Source: a virus
Lineage: Duplodnaviria; Heunggongvirae; Uroviricota; Caudoviricetes
Reading direction: 5' to 3' (one strand)
Length of the DNA: 27,739 nt
Virus record (IMG/VR): IMGVR_UViG_2695420411_000008
The translations under genes were made by a program, and so were the position numbers. The notes beneath the pieces were generated by a model. It searched no databases. It saw only the letters and a program-made list of their open reading frames with translations, and had not been told where the DNA came from. This document shows, one piece after another, positions 1 to 27,739 of the stretch; position 1 is the first letter of the stretch, and every line of letters begins with the position of its first letter.

Positions 1-759
1 ATGAGCCAAATTTTACTGCAACCTGCTAACGCGATGATTACGCTGGAAAACGTCAATAAATGGTATGGACAATTCCATGTTTTGAAAAATATAAATTTAA
101 CCGTGCAACCGGGAGAACGGATCGTTCTGTGTGGCCCTTCAGGTTCCGGTAAATCGACAACCATTCGTTGTATTAATCATCTGGAAGAACATCAACAGGG
201 ACGGATCGTGGTAGATGGCATCGAACTTAATGAAGATATCCGCAATATTGAGCGCGTCAGGCAGGAAGTGGGAATGGTCTTTCAGCATTTCAATCTCTTC
301 CCTCATCTGACCGTTCTACAGAACTGTACCCTGGCACCGATTTGGGTACGCAAGATGCCTAAGAAAGAGGCTGAAGATCTGGCGGTGCATTACCTCGAGC
401 GGGTGAGAATTGCCGAACATGCGCATAAGTTTCCCGGACAGATTTCAGGTGGTCAGCAGCAACGCGTTGCCATTGCGCGTTCGCTGTGTATGAAGCCGAA
501 AATTATGTTGTTTGATGAGCCAACGTCGGCGCTCGATCCTGAGATGGTGAAAGAGGTGCTGGATACGATGATTGGGCTGGCGCAGTCGGGTATGACAATG
601 CTGTGTGTAACACATGAGATGGGGTTTGCACGAACCGTCGCTGACCGGGTGATTTTTATGGATCGTGGGGAGATAGTGGAACAAGCTGCACCTGATGAGT
701 TTTTTGCGCATCCTAAATCAGAGCGTACGAGGGCATTTTTATCGCAGGTAATCCATTAA
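1..759 (+). CDS. yhdZ: Polar amino-acid ABC transporter ATP-binding protein (YhdZ-like); chromosomal flank
   Basis: Walker [13 protein letters not shown] signature SGGQQQRV, Walker [11 protein letters not shown] in the 252-aa ORF; near-identity to E. coli YhdZ is from memory, not a search. Confidence 0.85.
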
Positions 760-785
760 TTGAATGTTAGTTCGAAAAGCAAAAA

Positions 786-813
786 GGCCATCCTTTCGGA
801 TGGCCTTTCGCTT
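786..813 (+). terminator. Rho-independent terminator after the ABC transporter gene
   Basis: GGCCATCC / TTTC loop / GGATGGCC perfect 8-bp stem followed by a T-rich tract. Confidence 0.7.
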
Positions 814-854
814 GATTTGATGTCTGGCAGTTTATGGCGGGCGTCCTGCCCGCC

Positions 855-864
855 NNNNNNNNNN
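855..864. other. Assembly gap (10 N)
   Basis: Run of 10 n characters; immediately preceded by a GC hairpin (GGCGGGC-GTCCT-GCCCGCC, 836-854). Confidence 0.95.
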
Positions 865-7117: not shown

Positions 7118-8596
7118 ATGTCCCGAAAGAAACGCCAGAGCGGCGCACAAAAGCCCGTCCGGACTGGTGACGGGTACAACAACTTCGCGGCTAAGCTCGG
7201 CGGCTATACATCCAACATCCAGAGCGGTGGGAGCTATCAGCCTGGCTATATCTCGCGTAACCGCGTACAGCTGGAATTTGCGTATCGTTCATCGTTTTTG
7301 GTGGGCGCCGGTGTAGACGCTATGGCCGATGATATGACCCGCAAGGGCATAAACATCAGTTCCAAGCTCGAGCCCGGACAGAAGGGTAAATTTGAGATGT
7401 TCTGGGATGACATTGCCATCTGGGACGGACTGAACGACACCCTGAAGTGGTCCCGGCTGTACGGCGGCGCGCTGCTGGTGGTGCTGCTGGAAGGGCAGGA
7501 CATGTCCACTCCGCTGAAGCTCGACCGCATCAAAGAGGGTCAGTTCAAGGGGGTGATGTGCCTCGACCGCTGGCAGGTAACCCCGAGCTATTACGACCTG
7601 GTGACCGATTACGGCCCGGAGTTCGGCAAGCCGAAGTACTACAAGGTGGTGACCAACCAGCAGGGGATCCCCCCGTGGAAGATTCACCACAGCCGCATTA
7701 TCCGCATGGAAGGTGACACACTGCCATTCCAGCAGGCGCAGACCGAGAACGGCTGGGGAATGTCGGTAGTCGAGCGTATCTACGAGCGCATTCAGGCGTT
7801 CGATACCGCAACCGTCGGCACTACACAGCTGATTCACAAGGCGCACCTGCGTACCTACAGCATTGACGGATTGCGTAAGATTCTGGCCACTGGCGGCACG
7901 CTGGAAGATGGTCTGATGAAGCACATGGACATGATCCGTGAGTTCCAGACCATAGAAGGCATGACCATCATGGATAAGTCGGACGAGTTCCAGACCCACA
8001 GTTACTCGTTCGCCGGGATCGCTGATGTCATCCTGCGCTTTGCTGAGCAGGTATCCGGCGCAACTGGGATCCCGCTGGTGCGCCTGTTCGGGCAGTCACC
8101 ATCCGGATTCAGCACCGGCGACGGGGATCTGGAGAACTACTACAGCCGCGTTAACTCGCTGCAGGAGCGCCGCCTGCGCCGACACATCCGCTGGCTGCTG
8201 GATATCTCCTGGCGCTCCCTGTTCGGACAGCCCCTGCCGGAAGACTTCACCTTCGAGTTCAACAAGCTCTGGGAGATGTCGGACACTGACCGGGCGACAA
8301 TGGCCAGCAACGTGGCCACCGCCCTGGCGACTGCCGTGCGCGACATCGGTATGCCGCAGCATGCCGCGCTGAACGACCTGCGCAACCTGTCCGACATCAT
8401 CGGTATCGGCGGCTCTATCACCGACAAGGATATTGAAGATGCCAAAGCAGAATGGGAGGAGGCTGAATCTGAAACCGAACCTCCGCCGCAAATCGGAGCG
8501 CCAGTATCAGAAAAGTCTACAGGAGATAGCGCGTCAGTGCGGCGCGATAGTAACTGGCTCCTACGATGGTTCGGAAGCGAGCGCCGAGCAGGTTAG
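7118..8596 (+). CDS. Portal protein
   Basis: 492-aa ORF immediately after terL and before the head-morphogenesis gene; last ~50 aa overlap the next gene and look compositionally odd. Confidence 0.8.
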   Translation: MSRKKRQSGAQKPVRTGDGYNNFAAKLGGYTSNIQSGGSYQPGYISRNRVQLEFAYRSSFLVGAGVDAMADDMTRKGINISSKLEPGQKGKFEMFWDDIAIWDGLNDTLKWSRLYGGALLVVLLEGQDMSTPLKLDRIKEGQFKGVMCLDRWQVTPSYYDLVTDYGPEFGKPKYYKVVTNQQGIPPWKIHHSRIIRMEGDTLPFQQAQTENGWGMSVVERIYERIQAFDTATVGTTQLIHKAHLRTYSIDGLRKILATGGTLEDGLMKHMDMIREFQTIEGMTIMDKSDEFQTHSYSFAGIADVILRFAEQVSGATGIPLVRLFGQSPSGFSTGDGDLENYYSRVNSLQERRLRRHIRWLLDISWRSLFGQPLPEDFTFEFNKLWEMSDTDRATMASNVATALATAVRDIGMPQHAALNDLRNLSDIIGIGGSITDKDIEDAKAEWEEAESETEPPPQIGAPVSEKSTGDSASVRRDSNWLLRWFGSERRAG

Positions 8597-8798
8597 CGCC
8601 CGGCTGATAGATTACTCGCTGCTGATTGACGACTGGGCCGACCGGGTAGCCAAACGCATGTTCCTGCAGGTTGAGCAGGAGGAGTGGAACCAGTGGCGCT
8701 CTGTGTCGCAGGAAATCTCTGAGGGGCTGCGGGATGTTGTCGGCAATACGCCGGTGGGGTTCGTGGCTCAGGACATCGTATCCCGCAGGTGCAGCTGA
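8439..8798 (+). CDS. Head morphogenesis protein (SPP1 gp7 / Mu F-like), N-terminal fragment
   Basis: Frame-0 ORF with LIDYSLLIDDWADRVAKRMF segment; ends at TGA 8796-8798 just where the conserved domain continues in another frame. Confidence 0.55.
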   Translation: MPKQNGRRLNLKPNLRRKSERQYQKSLQEIARQCGAIVTGSYDGSEASAEQVSARLIDYSLLIDDWADRVAKRMFLQVEQEEWNQWRSVSQEISEGLRDVVGNTPVGFVAQDIVSRRCS

Positions 8799-9190
8799 TT
8801 AAATCTCTTCCGCTGGAAGCTGCCGACCGCGTTCGTGACATCCAGGAGCGCGCAATGGAAGCCGTCATAAACGGTGAGCGCCCCGACGCGCTCTATCGGA
8901 TGATTATGGAGTCCGGCGACGTGGCAGAGAGCCGCGCGAAGATGATCGCCCGCACCGAAATCGGCCGGGCCACGACAGCGCTCACCCAGGCGCGCGCTGA
9001 GTCGATTGGCTCTGAGGGCTACTGGTGGCGCATCGAAGGGGCCGGAACGCGCGATTCACATCGCTGGATGAAAGATAAGTTTGTGCGCTGGGATAACCCG
9101 CCGACGCTGGACGGTATGACCGGGCACGCCGGGTGCCTGCCGAACTGCAAATGCTGGCCGGAAGTGCAGGTGCCAAATCCCAGGAAATAA
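8789..9190 (+). CDS. Head morphogenesis protein (SPP1 gp7 / Mu F-like), C-terminal fragment
   Basis: QVQLIKSLP, ARTEIGRA, WDNPP, Cys-containing C-terminus characteristic of this family; frame is -1 relative to the N-terminal fragment. Confidence 0.7.
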   Translation: MQLIKSLPLEAADRVRDIQERAMEAVINGERPDALYRMIMESGDVAESRAKMIARTEIGRATTALTQARAESIGSEGYWWRIEGAGTRDSHRWMKDKFVRWDNPPTLDGMTGHAGCLPNCKCWPEVQVPNPRK

Positions 9191-9227
9191 AAAAGCCATC
9201 ACAAGGATGGCTGGGAGGGAGGCTTTC

Positions 9228-9425
9228 TCAATCTACATAAACCCTGAATTGAGCTGAATTACCCTCTACGGCATCAATGCGAGCGTTCACCCCGAGCGCT
9301 GCAAGTTGGTCTTTGATTTTGGTGTAACGCTCGCCCTCAACATAGTCATTGTTGAGGCCAGTGGTGCGTGACCACTCATCTGCCATGCGATCCATCTTCG
9401 CTAACAATTCTGCTTTAGTGCTCAT
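9228..9425 (-). CDS. Hypothetical 65-aa protein, antisense insertion inside the head module
   Basis: Minus-strand ATG at 9425 preceded by AAGGAG at 7-nt spacing; TTGACA -35-like hexamer further upstream (plus-strand 9485-9490); ORF track's upstream Met lacks an RBS. Confidence 0.55.
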   Translation of the reverse strand: MSTKAELLAKMDRMADEWSRTTGLNNDYVEGERYTKIKDQLAALGVNARIDAVEGNSAQFRVYVD

Positions 9426-21410: not shown

Positions 21411-21761
21411 TTACTCGTCTTTAAAACTTATAATTTTGTACTGCTCCAGTACTTCTGAAAGCTCCTTTGATGTCAGATTTTGTATTTCGATCGTACCTTT
21501 TTCAGTGGTTACCGTTATTTTTTTTGATGATCTGGTCTGTAACCATTTTCTCGCTATCGATGCAATGGCGATACAAGCTGGTGATGATGTGATAACGGTA
21601 ATAGATATTTCGAGAATTGTGCCAATAGCGCCAGGAGAATCACCCGTTCTGACTCTTTTACTTACTACATAGTCATTAGCGGGTATGTTATCCTGGATTA
21701 CAGGAAGTAACTCTTTCCAAATAGCTGGAGTAAATTTTATGGTTGTTTCTGATTTTGGCAT
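21411..21761 (-). CDS. Hypothetical membrane protein (116 aa), convergent partner in the insertion
   Basis: Minus-strand ORF with a central hydrophobic segment AIGTILEISITVITSSPACIAIASIA; weak RBS; AT-rich. Confidence 0.45.
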   Translation of the reverse strand: MPKSETTIKFTPAIWKELLPVIQDNIPANDYVVSKRVRTGDSPGAIGTILEISITVITSSPACIAIASIARKWLQTRSSKKITVTTEKGTIEIQNLTSKELSEVLEQYKIISFKDE

Positions 21762-24866: not shown

Positions 24867-25645
24867 TGGCTGGAACTAATGATTTTAAAGCGTTTGCGAC
24901 AGATGCTAATGCAAATGTTACCTCGCAGGAGGAATGGGAGACGCTAACCGCACTGAAGAAAGGATTCTCCTCGGGTAAAGCATCCAGCGCACAGGTCAGT
25001 AAAGCGCTGCGCCAACCGTCGACGATGGCGGCTGTACTGGGGCAGTTTATCGCGAACGCCGAACTGGACGCGCTCGATGATGGTGACGTTGATGGACTGG
25101 TGGCAAAGCTGGCGACAGCGATTACCACAAACCTTGGTTTGGGAGAAGGCTCAGCATTACCCGTTGGCGTACCTGTTCCGTGGCCTTCAGCCACACCGCC
25201 GACAGGCTGGCTGAAATGCAACGGTGCCGCTTTTTCTGCTGAAGAATACCCGGAACTGGCAAAGGCTTACCCGACAAATAAATTGCCTGATTTACGTGGT
25301 GAGTTTATTCGTGGCTGGGATGACGGGCGTGGAGTGGATAGCGGTCGTACTTTATTAACGAATCAAGAGCATGCAGTAATTTCTCATAATCATGGAATAC
25401 CTACAAAAGTGGGGTCAGTTACTAATATCCCGTATGGAATAGAACAGGTTATATCTGATGAAACCATTTTTTCATCAGCAAAAACAGTTGGTGTGGATTA
25501 CTGGTCTAACAGTGAAAGAGTTTTTACTTATACCTCTGGTGGAAGAAATGGTGCTGAATCAGTGAGTTCACCTGATGCCTCCTCTTTAATTAAAGAAACC
25601 AGACCACGGAACCTAGCATTTGCGTATATCGTGAGGGCTGCATAA
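24866..25645 (+). CDS. Tail fibre protein: constant N-terminal part fused to the currently expressed variable C-terminal domain
   Basis: GGGGGAG RBS 9 nt before ATG 24866 (ATG overlaps upstream stop); C-terminal PWP...GWLKCNG...LPDLRGEFIRGWDDGRG collar-type receptor-binding domain; crossover site inside the gene. Confidence 0.75.
   Translation: MAGTNDFKAFATDANANVTSQEEWETLTALKKGFSSGKASSAQVSKALRQPSTMAAVLGQFIANAELDALDDGDVDGLVAKLATAITTNLGLGEGSALPVGVPVPWPSATPPTGWLKCNGAAFSAEEYPELAKAYPTNKLPDLRGEFIRGWDDGRGVDSGRTLLTNQEHAVISHNHGIPTKVGSVTNIPYGIEQVISDETIFSSAKTVGVDYWSNSERVFTYTSGGRNGAESVSSPDASSLIKETRPRNLAFAYIVRAA
25122..25147. promoter_or_regulatory. Left inversion crossover site (hix/gix-like, 26 bp)
   Basis: TTACCACAAACC-TT-GGTTTGGGAGAA; the 14-bp core TTGGTTTGGGAGAA (25134-25147) is a perfect inverted copy of 27106-27119. 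Confidence 0.6.
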
Positions 25646-26247
25646 TGGTGAAAGCAAAATTAAACAGTGCGTTTATTGCCACCGTGGCAGGTGAAATCAC
25701 TGTGTACAACTACCGGGGCGACACCCGCGAATACATATCCTCATCGGTTGAGTATCTGCCTGTGGGGGTGGGTATTCCTGCCAATTCCTGTACCGATGCG
25801 CCCGGCACACATAAAGCTGGTTATGCAATCTGCCGTTCTGCAGATTTTAACTCATGGGAATATGTGCCAGACCATCGCGGTGAAACGGTATATAGCACTG
25901 AAACAGGAGAATCAAAAGAAATCACAGCTCCGGGTGATTACTCTGAAAATACAACTACTATCGCCCCGTTAACGCCATTCGATAAATGGGATGGTGAGAA
26001 ATGGGTGACCGATACTGAGGCACAGCATAGCGCCGCAGTAGACGTGGCAGAAGCACAGCGCCAGTCGCTGATTGATGCTGCTATGGCTTCCATCAGTCTG
26101 ATTCAGCTGAAATTGCAGGCCGGGCGGCAACTGACGCAAGCAGAAATCACTCGCCTTAACGCTGTGCTGGATTACATTGACACGGTGACGGCAACAGATA
26201 CCAGCACCGCGCCGGATGTCATCTGGCCTGAACTGCCGGAGGCGTAG
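25645..26247 (+). CDS. Tail fibre assembly protein (Tfa, active orientation)
   Basis: ATG overlaps tail-fibre stop; conserved C-terminal DTSTAPDVIWPELPEA motif shared with the minus-strand paralogue. Confidence 0.75.
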   Translation: MVKAKLNSAFIATVAGEITVYNYRGDTREYISSSVEYLPVGVGIPANSCTDAPGTHKAGYAICRSADFNSWEYVPDHRGETVYSTETGESKEITAPGDYSENTTTIAPLTPFDKWDGEKWVTDTEAQHSAAVDVAEAQRQSLIDAAMASISLIQLKLQAGRQLTQAEITRLNAVLDYIDTVTATDTSTAPDVIWPELPEA

Positions 26248-26662
26248 GCCATTCAATATCTGGAGCACTGGAGGTATCAACCAGTTCCAGTGCGTCCAGA
26301 TAATCCAGCCACAAATTATATTGCGCCAGTTCCTCACTTTTCAGACGACCAATCGCCGCTTTGCCAGGCCACTGATGAGTATTGATGTAGGTATTGACTT
26401 CAGAAACCAAAGATATTTTTTTCATTTCAGCCGTCAACACCTCATCCTCTTTTGAAGGGGGTGGGGAATTAATCCATACTGGCCGTCCTGAACTGTCAGC
26501 GCCAATTTCTTTCCCTTCTGGATGCAGCCCAAGAAATTGCTCATATGTTTCTCTGGTAATTTCAATAACATCATCAGGAAGCGTTCCCGCATCCTCATAT
26601 TCTGGAAACAATTCTTGCAGATAAAAACTTTTACTTCCGGGTGAAAAGAATACTGAGTTCAT
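26219..26662 (-). CDS. Tail fibre assembly protein (Tfa', alternative orientation)
   Basis: Convergent with tfa, overlapping by 29 nt; C-terminal DTSSAPDIEWPTPP motif parallels Tfa. Confidence 0.7.
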   Translation of the reverse strand: MNSVFFSPGSKSFYLQELFPEYEDAGTLPDDVIEITRETYEQFLGLHPEGKEIGADSSGRPVWINSPPPSKEDEVLTAEMKKISLVSEVNTYINTHQWPGKAAIGRLKSEELAQYNLWLDYLDALELVDTSSAPDIEWPTPPAVQAR

Positions 26663-26664
26663 TC

Positions 26665-27119
26665 TTACCGTCCAATGATTAATGCTGAGACGCTGGTATC
26701 TGAAGGAAAGGCTGCATTCAGTGGTTTGTCGACTTTGAACACAATCGTATTATTCCCCCTGACAGCGGCAAAAGAACAAACCGCAGTCGCGTATGAACCT
26801 GTAATATTACTGGATACACCACCATAAGCTGTTGTTGATACCAGAGGGATAACGCCCAGCACCTTATTAGGAAATACAAAGGGCAATGTGGCTGTGGCAA
26901 TATAAGACTTATTAGAACCTGTAATGGCATAAGCATTATCAGTCATTCCATTCATCGCCACCGGGCCGCTTATACTTACAGTAACCATCTGAATGATTAG
27001 CCCGTCAGGTTGACGAATCACAAAATTTCCATTGCCACCAGTAACCGTCCAGAAAGACATATCAGGGATTTGGTTTTCCCCGTTGCCCACATTCCGTTTT
27101 GCCGCTTCTCCCAAACCAA
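26665..27119 (-). CDS. Alternative tail-fibre C-terminal cassette (Sv'), currently lacking its own start
   Basis: Minus-strand frame open from the right crossover site; reads KVGLGEAAK across the core, matching NLGLGEGS at the left site, so inversion would fuse it in frame to the constant part. Confidence 0.65.
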
Positions 27120-27131
27120 CCTTTTTTATAA
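27106..27131. promoter_or_regulatory. Right inversion crossover site (hix/gix-like, 26 bp)
   Basis: TTCTCCCAAACC-AA-CCTTTTTTATAA; closely resembles hixL TTCTTGAAAACCAAGGTTTTTGATAA. Confidence 0.6.
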
Positions 27132-27190
27132 CCATCAAAAATCTGGTGATGCTTCGCCGTTTCTCCTGTTTTCATAACAGGAGAAATCCC

Positions 27191-27739
27191 ATGATTTACG
27201 GTTATGCCCGAGTATCAACAAACCACCAGGACACTGAATTGCAACTAACGGCGCTCAAGTCAGCGGGTTGTGAGAAAATTTTTGAAGAGCATGCCAGCGG
27301 GAGGAAATCGAATCGGCCGGTTCTAAAACGGCTGATCGCCACTATGCAGCCGGGGGATGAACTGGTGGTCTGGAAGCTGGACAGGATAGGCCGCAACGTT
27401 CTGCATGCGCTGTTGATGTTCCAGCAGTTACAGGAAAAGGGTATCAACTTCCGCAGTATTACCGATGGCGTGGATCTCAAAACAGCCAGCGGCCGCTATA
27501 ACTTTCGTAACATCCTTTCCGCAGCACAATATGAATCTGATCTTAATAGCGAACGTACCTTAGCAGGGCTGGCCGTAGCCAGGGCAAAAGGGCGAGTTGG
27601 TGGTCGCAGGCCTAAGTTCACGGATGAGCAATGGCGGGAAATGGGGGAGCGGATGGCAACCGGTGAATCACGACAAAGCGTATCAAAAACGTATGGAGTA
27701 GGGCTCTCAACTCTGTATAAAAAGTTTCCAGCTAGCTGA
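27191..27739 (+). CDS. Serine recombinase, DNA invertase (Hin/Gin/Cin/Pin family)
   Basis: AGGAGA RBS; N-terminal YARVSTNHQD with catalytic Ser, VVWKLDRIGR motif, C-terminal HTH GVGLSTLYKKFPAS; 182 aa, stop at the window end. Confidence 0.9.
   Translation: MIYGYARVSTNHQDTELQLTALKSAGCEKIFEEHASGRKSNRPVLKRLIATMQPGDELVVWKLDRIGRNVLHALLMFQQLQEKGINFRSITDGVDLKTASGRYNFRNILSAAQYESDLNSERTLAGLAVARAKGRVGGRRPKFTDEQWREMGERMATGESRQSVSKTYGVGLSTLYKKFPAS

What the first reader, a model, noticed from the sequence alone, without database searches (positions are those of the whole stretch)
8433..9190. Head morphogenesis gene split by a -1 frameshift and overlapping the portal 3' end by ~160 nt
The Mu F / SPP1 gp7-like protein is in two frames: the N-terminal part (to TGA 8796-8798) and the conserved C-terminal domain (open from before 8789) differ by one nucleotide around GTATCCCGCAGGTGCAGCTGA. 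The N-terminal fragment also begins well inside the portal ORF, whose last ~50 codons look like out-of-frame translation. Possible explanations are a sequencing indel, a true inactivating mutation (defective prophage) or recoding. A second indel near 8430 affecting the portal terminus is also possible.
Basis: seen in the sequence. Interest (0 to 1): 0.5.

Follow-up and report, generated by a model that had tools for sequence, protein, structure and literature searches.

The report
Frameshifted prophage head gene overlapping portal
An E. coli prophage's Mu F-like head gene is broken by a genuine, lineage-specific one-base deletion (an ordinary pseudogene, not recoding), while its ~158-base overlap with the portal gene is the normal, conserved layout of this phage family.

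Summary
The Mu F/SPP1 gp7-like gene lies in two frames: ATG 8439 to TGA 8796-8798, then Q117 onward at 8786-9190. The cause is a single missing C (relatives TCCCGCCAGGTG, window TCCCGCAGGTG, at 8785/8786). Adding it back restores one 250-aa protein.

Five 99.9%-identical E. coli prophages, a 91% relative and more than 25 relatives across Enterobacterales and their phages all have the single ORF. There is no slippery heptamer or homopolymer at the site, so this is not recoding.

The same deletion occurs in at least 24 other public contigs, including a de novo Logan assembly of SRR1631198. They are 100% identical to the window but have different contig breaks. This points to a real allele of one clonal lineage rather than a random sequencing error. 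All 33 other late genes are intact.

No second indel exists near 8430. The out-of-frame portal/MuF overlap is present in every relative examined but one (74-158 nt; phage YP3 has secondarily removed it). It has a conserved ATG and Shine-Dalgarno sequence and shows purifying selection on both frames: strong on the MuF N-terminus, moderate on the portal tail.

Overall this is an ordinary prophage pseudogene, with a mildly interesting conserved dual-coding overlap.

The parts
7118..8596 (+). Portal gene (492 aa, Phage_portal_3/DUF1073). The Pfam domain covers residues 51-403. The last 52 codons are overlapped by the MuF gene.
   Evidence: 344.5 bits. The length is the same in the relatives annotated.
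8426..8430 (+). Shine-Dalgarno-like AAGGA, 8 nt upstream of the MuF start and inside the portal ORF.
   Evidence: GAGGA/AAGGA is conserved at this position in relatives.
8439..8798 (+). MuF-like gene, N-terminal fragment in frame 0. It has 116 native residues, then the aberrant residues RCS, then the premature stop TGA 8796-8798.
   Evidence: PHROG 324 matches residues 2-116.
8439..8596 (+). 158-nt out-of-frame overlap between the portal 3' end (frame 2) and the MuF 5' end (frame 0). It is conserved and dual-coding.
   Evidence: overlaps of 74-158 nt in relatives. (selection on both frames).
8785..8786 (+). Site of the 1-nt deletion: CC in relatives, a single C here. The ancestral context is CGCCAGG.
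   Evidence: It is the only window-unique indel in about 24.3 kb.
8786..9190 (+). MuF-like gene, C-terminal part in the -1 frame (native residues Q117-K250, stop TAA 9188-9190). It contains the whole Phage_Mu_F domain. The frame is open from 8723.
8855..9190 (+). Possible internal restart ORF (111 aa, ATG 8855) with AGGAG at 8844-8848. This is the product that gene callers report for the deleted allele (P0002).
   Evidence: Expression is not shown.
9194..9212 (-). Terminator-like hairpin between MuF and the convergent small minus-strand gene (9228..9425).
   Evidence: This is a consensus match only.

Best explanation
The window carries the late region of a myovirus-type E. coli prophage with a PBSX-type terminase, a DUF1073 portal, a MuF gene and XM1/Pa193-like head and tail genes. 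Its Mu F/SPP1 gp7-like minor head gene has lost one C from a CC dinucleotide at 8785/8786.

Translation from the native start (ATG 8439, inside the portal ORF) therefore reads 116 correct residues, then Arg-Cys-Ser, and stops at 8796-8798. This separates the N-terminal region from the entire Phage_Mu_F domain. The change is a genuine mutation fixed in one clonal lineage, that is a frameshift pseudogene. It is not programmed frameshifting and not a random assembly error.

The functional consequence is inferred. By analogy with SPP1 gp7, which binds the portal, enters the procapsid in a few copies and is dispensable (about 25% of virions lacking it are infectious), the prophage probably still assembles particles, but with reduced infectivity.

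The 158-nt overlap with the portal gene is unrelated to the mutation. It is the ancestral gene layout. MuF initiates at a conserved SD+ATG in the +1 frame of the portal's C-terminal tail, and both frames are maintained by selection.
For: Deletion and restoration:
- The alignment shows a single-base gap, and the intact relatives encode one 250-aa protein.
- Five 99.9% relatives and one 91% relative carry the extra base.
- In a genome-contig scan across Enterobacterales, 18 of 23 loci match residues 1-250 in a single frame. Phage relatives also have one frame.

No recoding signal:
- No X_XXY_YYZ heptamer and no homopolymer of 5 or more lies in the 75-nt window where a shift would have to occur.

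Reality of the allele:
- It is the only window-unique indel across 865-25140, and all 33 other late CDS are intact.
- The 111-aa product that is only called when the gene is broken is on 33 contigs / 59 index blocks.
- Four NCBI assemblies (plus 20 similar places not shown), an IMG/VR contig and a Logan de novo assembly of SRR1631198 are 100% identical to the window, deletion included, yet have different contig breaks.

Overlap is native:
- ATG plus SD are conserved.
- PHROG 324 covers residues 2-248.
- The overlap is present down to 38% identity.
- In 12 phylogenetically independent pairs, MuF-synonymous/portal-nonsynonymous changes run at 0.225 per site in the overlap against 0.432 in the control (p=3e-10). 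MuF-nonsynonymous/portal-synonymous changes run at 0.051 against 0.51 (p=3e-56).

Function of gp7: PMC6316719 and PMC5576092.
Against: Raw reads were not inspected directly. The supporting assemblies appear to come from one project and one clone (accessions JRRN-JRSG). They prove reproducibility of the base call, not independent occurrence of the mutation. If they had been built by reference-guided consensus, an error could in principle propagate, although the Logan de novo assembly argues against this.

No expression or virion data exist, so loss of function is inferred. An SD-preceded internal ATG (8855) could still yield a domain-only protein.

The ancestral site is a Dcm motif (CCAGG), a known trouble spot for some long-read basecallers. 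However, only 1 of 98 CCWGG sites is affected, and the N10-gapped draft looks like a short-read assembly.
Confidence: 0.85

Rival explanations
1. Sequencing or assembly error: the genome really has CC, and the gene is intact.
For: The change is a single-base indel. The ancestral context CCAGG is a Dcm methylation site (that some long-read basecallers err at such sites is my own background knowledge). The source is a gapped draft, with an N10 run at 855-864.
Against: It is the only window-unique indel in 24 kb, and it is not in a homopolymer. The other 97 CCWGG sites are unaffected. The identical deletion is present in at least 24 separately assembled contigs with different break points and in a Logan de novo assembly of SRR1631198.
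Confidence: 0.06
2. Programmed -1 ribosomal frameshifting or another form of recoding joins the two frames to make full-length MuF.
For: The two ORFs overlap by 10 nt (8789-8798), and the -1 frame is open from 8723.
Against: No slippery heptamer and no homopolymer are present. A correct protein would require a shift exactly at CGC/CAG, where re-pairing is poor. All homologues, including 99.9%-identical ones, encode a single frame. The two-frame state is therefore derived, not conserved.
Confidence: 0.01
3. The mutation is real but functionally tolerated. The N-terminal fragment (119 aa) and a restart product from ATG 8855 (111 aa, the whole Mu_F domain) work as two pieces, or MuF is simply dispensable, so the prophage remains productive.
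For: AGGAG at 8844-8848 lies 6 nt before ATG 8855. The break falls at residue 116, upstream of the Pfam domain at 134-239. All other late genes are intact. SPP1 gp7 is dispensable (PMC6316719). Phage YP3 is viable without the first 26 MuF residues.
Against: There is no evidence of expression or complementation. Residues 117-139 would be missing from both fragments. MuF is under strong purifying selection along its whole length in relatives.
Confidence: 0.2

Closest known systems
Phage Mu gpF / Bacillus phage SPP1 gp7 (MuF1, Pfam PF04233) minor head proteins
   Same: The PF04233 domain scores above the gathering cut-off. The gene sits immediately downstream of the portal gene in the packaging module, as described for the MuF superfamily. 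It is a mono-domain 'short' MuF with no toxin extension.
   Different: In this window the gene is interrupted by a 1-nt deletion. In this phage family the gene starts 74-158 nt inside the portal ORF, out of frame. I found no description of that layout, although I did not search the literature specifically for it. Sequence similarity to SPP1 gp7 or Mu gpF themselves was not measured here.
Frameshift pseudogenes in resident (decaying) prophages
   Same: There is a single inactivating indel relative to otherwise near-identical intact prophages, and it is fixed in one host lineage.
   Different: Only one gene is hit. The other 33 late genes are intact, and in sister assemblies the genes upstream of the window's contig start (DinI, DUF1367, YbcO) are present. 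The element is therefore at most at the very start of decay.
Programmed -1 frameshifting in phage structural genes (for example lambda G/GT tail assembly chaperones)
   Same: Two consecutive ORFs in 0 and -1 frames within a phage late operon.
   Different: There is no slippery site, no conservation of the two-frame arrangement, and the ancestral state is one ORF.
Long out-of-frame overlapping gene pairs in phages (for example Rz/Rz1)
   Same: Two proteins are read from the same DNA in different frames, both ORFs are conserved, and both are under purifying selection.
   Different: This is a terminal overlap between the portal C-terminal tail and the MuF N-terminus, not an embedded gene. The constraint on the portal frame is only moderate. 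One viable phage (YP3) has eliminated the overlap.

Membership tests
MuF1 / Phage_Mu_F (Mu gpF, SPP1 gp7-like) | PF04233 domain above Pfam's gathering score | tested here: met
   The window's C-terminal piece scores 51.9 bits and the restored 250-aa protein 50.2 bits, against a cut-off of 29.6.
MuF1 / Phage_Mu_F (Mu gpF, SPP1 gp7-like) | Gene located immediately downstream of the portal gene in the packaging module | tested here: met
   The criterion is taken from PMC5576092.
MuF1 / Phage_Mu_F (Mu gpF, SPP1 gp7-like) | One continuous ORF encoding the N-terminal region plus the MuF domain | tested here: not met
   The window is split at 8785/8786. The feature is met in all relatives examined, so the window holds a disrupted member.
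MuF1 / Phage_Mu_F (Mu gpF, SPP1 gp7-like) | Binds the portal and is packaged in a few copies inside the procapsid | not testable with these tools
   Known for SPP1 gp7 only (PMC6316719).
Programmed -1 ribosomal frameshift | Slippery heptamer X_XXY_YYZ (or a slippery run) in the zone where both frames are open | tested here: not met
   none in 8700-8798, and no homopolymer of 5 or more.
Programmed -1 ribosomal frameshift | Two-frame arrangement conserved among homologues | tested here: not met
   homologues have a single frame.
Programmed -1 ribosomal frameshift | Downstream stimulatory RNA structure | not tested
   Moot without a slippery site.
Frameshift pseudogene of a prophage gene | An intact orthologue exists, and a single indel accounts for the disruption | tested here: met
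Frameshift pseudogene of a prophage gene | The allele is reproducible in independent read sets or assemblies (not an error) | tested here: met
   Raw reads themselves were not inspected.
Dual-coding out-of-frame gene overlap | Both ORFs stay open across diverged relatives | tested here: met
   overlaps of 74-158 nt with the same +1 frame relation, down to 38% MuF identity. The exception is YP3.
Dual-coding out-of-frame gene overlap | Purifying selection detectable on each frame separately | tested here: met
   The MuF frame is strongly constrained (0.051 against 0.51). The portal tail is moderately constrained (0.225 against 0.432, p=3e-10).
Dual-coding out-of-frame gene overlap | Both products are made with these termini | not testable with these tools
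   Needs N- and C-terminal proteomics of virions or procapsids.

The most novel reading that the evidence does not exclude
The conserved 74-158-nt out-of-frame portal/MuF overlap is a functional dual-coding module. It encodes both a portal C-terminal tail (KP[TV]GDS...LRWF) and the basic MuF N-terminus. Placing the MuF start site inside the translated portal ORF would also set the low MuF:portal stoichiometry. RefSeq's 177-aa MuF models would then be mis-started by 73 residues.
Probability: 0.4. Interest if true: 0.35.

Novelty: new member of a known kind. Interest (0 to 1): 0.2.

Why it matters
For the flagged feature itself, very little. It is a routine single-gene frameshift in a resident prophage, and it is useful mainly as a lineage marker and as a caution for annotation.

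Two practical points follow:
- Automated annotation of this phage family (PGAP: 177 aa starting at the ATG equivalent to window 8658) probably truncates the MuF protein by 73 residues. It does so because it avoids the long overlap with the portal gene.
- The portal/MuF overlap offers a compact natural example of a terminal dual-coding region with measurable selection on both frames. Phage YP3 is a natural 'de-overlapped' variant that could be used to test what the overlapped segments do.

Tried and rejected
- Nanopore/Dcm artefact. The deleted C lies in an ancestral CCAGG. I rejected this as the main explanation because only 1 of 98 CCWGG sites is affected, no homopolymer indels are unique to the window, the draft is N-gapped in the short-read style, and the allele recurs in many assemblies.
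- Truncated defective prophage. Window 1-854 is the host gene yhdZ, directly abutting phage genes. I rejected this because 855-864 is an N10 scaffold gap, and sister assemblies carry the DinI/DUF1367/YbcO genes immediately upstream of the window's contig start.
- +1 frameshift fusing portal to MuF. I considered this because MuF is in the portal's +1 frame and PHROG 2662 suggests portal-MuF fusions exist elsewhere. A conserved SD+ATG explains MuF initiation, I saw no shift-prone site by eye, and I did not pursue it further.
- Whole-locus MAFFT alignment. It was uninformative at the mosaic ends, so I restricted it to 870-25600.
- Literature search for the assembly and run accessions returned nothing.
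- PDB sequence search with a MuF profile found no solved homologue.
- The XM1 structure paper mentions 'gp7' only as the tail tube protein or T4 gp7, which is not relevant to MuF.
- Structure prediction was not run. The intact protein is not a window sequence, and the result would not change the verdict.

Full report
**What is in the sequence.** The ORF list and raw sequence show three relevant ORFs.
- The portal gene lies at 7118..8596 (492 aa), in the frame where position mod 3 = 2.
- An ORF at 8433..8798 lies in frame 0 and ends at TGA 8796-8798.
- An ORF at 8789..9190 is again in frame 2.

Pfam assigns Phage_portal_3 (PF06381, 344 bits, residues 51-403) to the first ORF. It assigns Phage_Mu_F (PF04233, 51.9 bits against a cut-off of 29.6) to the third only. 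The middle ORF has no Pfam hit, but it matches PHROG 324 'head morphogenesis' over residues 2-116. Frame 2 is open only from 8723.

**The frame break is a one-base deletion.** Megablast against complete E. coli genomes found five prophages 99.9% identical over 8300-9250. Each spans 952 bases where the window has 951. A sixth relative is 91% identical. The alignment shows a single gap: the window reads TCCCG-CAGGTG and the relatives read TCCCGCCAGGTG, at window 8785/8786.

With that C restored, the relatives encode one protein of 250 aa running from the ATG equivalent to window 8439. The Mu_F domain occupies residues 134-239. The break falls after residue 116. The window therefore encodes 116 native residues plus Arg-Cys-Ser-stop, and the whole conserved domain is left in the -1 frame.

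**Not the norm, and not recoding.**
- A pattern scan of one genome per species returned 23 loci from Escherichia, Enterobacter, Citrobacter, Phytobacter, Raoultella, Trabulsiella, Serratia, Rahnella, Pantoea, Morganella and others. In 18 of them tblastn matched residues 1-250 in one segment.
- My ORF analysis gave single ORFs of 250 or 258 aa starting at the conserved ATG in 23 of the 29 loci examined. The rest had a later match start, lay at a contig end, or were YP3 or the partial plasmid copy L032.
- Phage relatives (Klebsiella phage Mulock, EKP1, Providencia PSTCR3) behave the same way.
- Within the 75 nt where a shift would have to occur there is no X_XXY_YYZ heptamer and no homopolymer of 5 or more.
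- Only a shift exactly at CGC|CAG would give the native sequence.

The two-frame state is therefore derived and unique to this allele. Programmed frameshifting is excluded for practical purposes.

**Error or mutation?** I aligned the window to three near-identical prophages (ES7, COL60J, NCTC11023) over 865-25140. The missing C is the only window-unique indel, and there are five window-unique SNPs. All 33 other late-region CDS translate intact.

The ancestral site is a Dcm motif (CCAGG), but only 1 of the 98 CCWGG sites differs. The window contains an N10 run at 855-864 that joins host yhdZ to the phage. It therefore comes from a scaffolded draft.

An exact-sequence look-up was the decisive test. 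It showed that the 111-aa ORF starting at ATG 8855 is present on 33 contigs from NCBI, Logan and ENA. A gene caller reports that ORF only when the upstream part of the gene is broken. The index lists it in 59 blocks, and 24 contigs were read. For comparison, the intact 177-aa form is on 331 contigs and the 250-aa form on 19.

The following records all carry the deleted form and are 100% identical to the window wherever they overlap, yet have different contig break points:
- a Logan de novo assembly of SRR1631198;
- an IMG/VR contig;
- four NCBI assemblies (GCA_001413485, 001412995, 001413685, 001413425), with 20 further similar places not shown.

The base call is therefore reproducible across separately sequenced and assembled members of what looks like one clonal series. 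I conclude that it is a real, lineage-specific frameshift. Raw reads were not inspected, and the assemblies are not phylogenetically independent.

**The overlap with the portal gene is native, with no second indel.**
- The portal ORF is 1479 nt in the 99.9% and 91% relatives, the same as in the window.
- Across 27 relatives the MuF frame is +1 relative to the portal frame, and the overlap is 122-158 nt.
- In more distant phages (vB_EcoM-683R1, Acinetobacter AbTJ, Edwardsiella ZHS; 53-38% MuF identity) the same arrangement persists, with overlaps of roughly 74-149 nt.
- The MuF ATG and a GAGGA/AAGGA motif 8 nt upstream are conserved at this position in 26 of the 27 relatives examined.
- The N-terminal sequence M..SGRR[LM]NLKP.LRRRSE.QY.KSL is conserved.
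- PHROG 324 aligns from residue 2.

The PGAP start used in RefSeq (the ATG equivalent to window 8658, giving 177 aa) is thus probably 73 codons too short. The portal tail encoded in the other frame also shows a recurring pattern...KP[TV]GDS.P[DN]......[LF]LRWF[TP]G[KQ]R*.

**Selection on both frames.** I classified substitutions by their effect in each frame. As controls I used the same frame offset in the flanking single-gene regions.

Results for 12 phylogenetically independent pairs:

| Class of change | Rate in overlap (per site) | Control region | Control rate | Statistics |
|---|---|---|---|---|
| Synonymous in MuF, nonsynonymous in portal | 0.225 | MuF-only | 0.432 | odds ratio 0.38, Fisher p=3e-10 |
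| Nonsynonymous in MuF, synonymous in portal | 0.051 | portal-only | 0.51 | p=3e-56 |

All-pairs and close-pairs summaries agree. The MuF N-terminus is therefore strongly constrained. The portal tail is moderately constrained, at roughly 0.35-0.5 of the neutral proxy.

They are nevertheless the conserved natural C-terminus.

**A natural counter-example.** Yersinia phage YP3 carries a 1-nt deletion plus two substitutions that turn GAAAAAGCCTG into GAAATAG-ATG. This creates an abutting TAG-ATG junction. It removes both the portal tail and the first 26 MuF residues. Those segments are therefore dispensable in at least one propagating phage.

**Likely consequences (inferred).** MuF proteins sit next to portal genes. 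The best-studied member, SPP1 gp7, binds the portal, enters the procapsid in a few copies and is dispensable for assembly, and only about 25% of virions lacking it are infectious (PMC6316719; PMC5576092).

By analogy, the frameshift probably lowers infectivity rather than abolishing particle formation. An AGGAG at 8844-8848 precedes ATG 8855, so a 111-aa domain-only product could be made. Whether it is made, or whether it works, is unknown. The rest of the late operon is intact, so the element is at most at the first step of decay.

**Comparison with known systems, and novelty.** The gene is a disrupted member of the MuF1/PF04233 family, and the disruption is an ordinary frameshift pseudogene. 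It fails two of the three defining tests for programmed frameshifting: no slippery site and no conservation. The third, a downstream stimulatory structure, was not tested.

The long conserved out-of-frame portal/MuF overlap is a modest new variant of the known phenomenon of overlapping phage genes. I found no description of it among the papers I read, but I did not search the literature specifically for it.

**Verdict.**
- Observation: confirmed.
- Interpretation: partly supported. A real inactivating mutation is supported. Recoding and a second indel are not supported. A sequencing error is unlikely.
- Interest: low (0.2).

Noticed in passing
window 1-864: Positions 1-854 are the host gene yhdZ (an amino-acid ABC transporter ATPase) plus its downstream spacer, 100% identical to E. 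coli ATCC 8739, C and B strains. Positions 855-864 are ten Ns. The window is a scaffolded draft, and the yhdZ-prophage junction is an artificial contig join. In complete genomes yhdZ is followed by an rRNA operon.
   Followed up: yes
L007 (Yersinia phage YP3, PV092592.1) 1990-2030: YP3 has eliminated the portal/MuF overlap. One deleted base plus two substitutions create a TAG-ATG junction. The portal loses its KPxGDS...LRWF tail and MuF loses its first 26 residues, yet the phage is propagated lytically. The upstream ATG would now give only a 29-aa peptide.
   Followed up: partly
relatives L001-L005 (RefSeq PGAP annotation), equivalent to window 8439-8657: RefSeq annotates the head morphogenesis protein as 177 aa, starting from an internal ATG (window equivalent 8658). 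Conservation of the upstream ATG and SD, the N-terminal sequence and the PHROG 324 alignment all indicate a 250-aa protein. Phage records pick varying starts (182-224 aa).
   Followed up: yes
window 21510-21518: A T-run length polymorphism exists among near-identical prophages; ES7 and NCTC11023 have one T fewer than the window and COL60J. It coincides with different annotated lengths of a minus-strand gene: 351 nt 'effector-associated constant component EACC1' against a 246-nt hypothetical protein.
   Followed up: partly
window 1330, 16503, 22317, 4233, 21376: There are five window-unique SNPs relative to three 99.9% relatives: rusA D65A, tail assembly chaperone D7Y, spike protein V113G, one synonymous change in the Rz1-like lysC gene, and a TGA-to-TAA stop change.
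   Followed up: partly
window 25140-27739: The tail-fibre, tail-fibre-assembly and recombinase (invertase) region is mosaic. Identity to the otherwise 99.9% relatives collapses after about 25140, and the best matches come from other E. coli prophages. This is consistent with an invertible or exchangeable host-range cassette.
   Followed up: no
PHROG 2662 versus MuF residues 46-239: A PHROG annotated 'portal protein' matches the MuF protein at the C-terminal end of its profile (positions 515-705 of 717). This suggests that portal-MuF fusion proteins exist in other phages.
   Followed up: no
L032 (Klebsiella sp. WOUb02 plasmid unnamed4): This is a partial copy of the portal/MuF pair on a plasmid. 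The MuF match starts at residue 56 and the portal-frame ORF is only 876 nt. It may be a degraded phage remnant or a phage-plasmid.
   Followed up: no
window 9194-9212 and 9228-9425 (minus strand): A small conserved minus-strand gene (65 aa, hypothetical) is convergent with MuF in the middle of the plus-strand late operon. A terminator-like hairpin with a T-run on the minus strand lies between the two genes.
   Followed up: no
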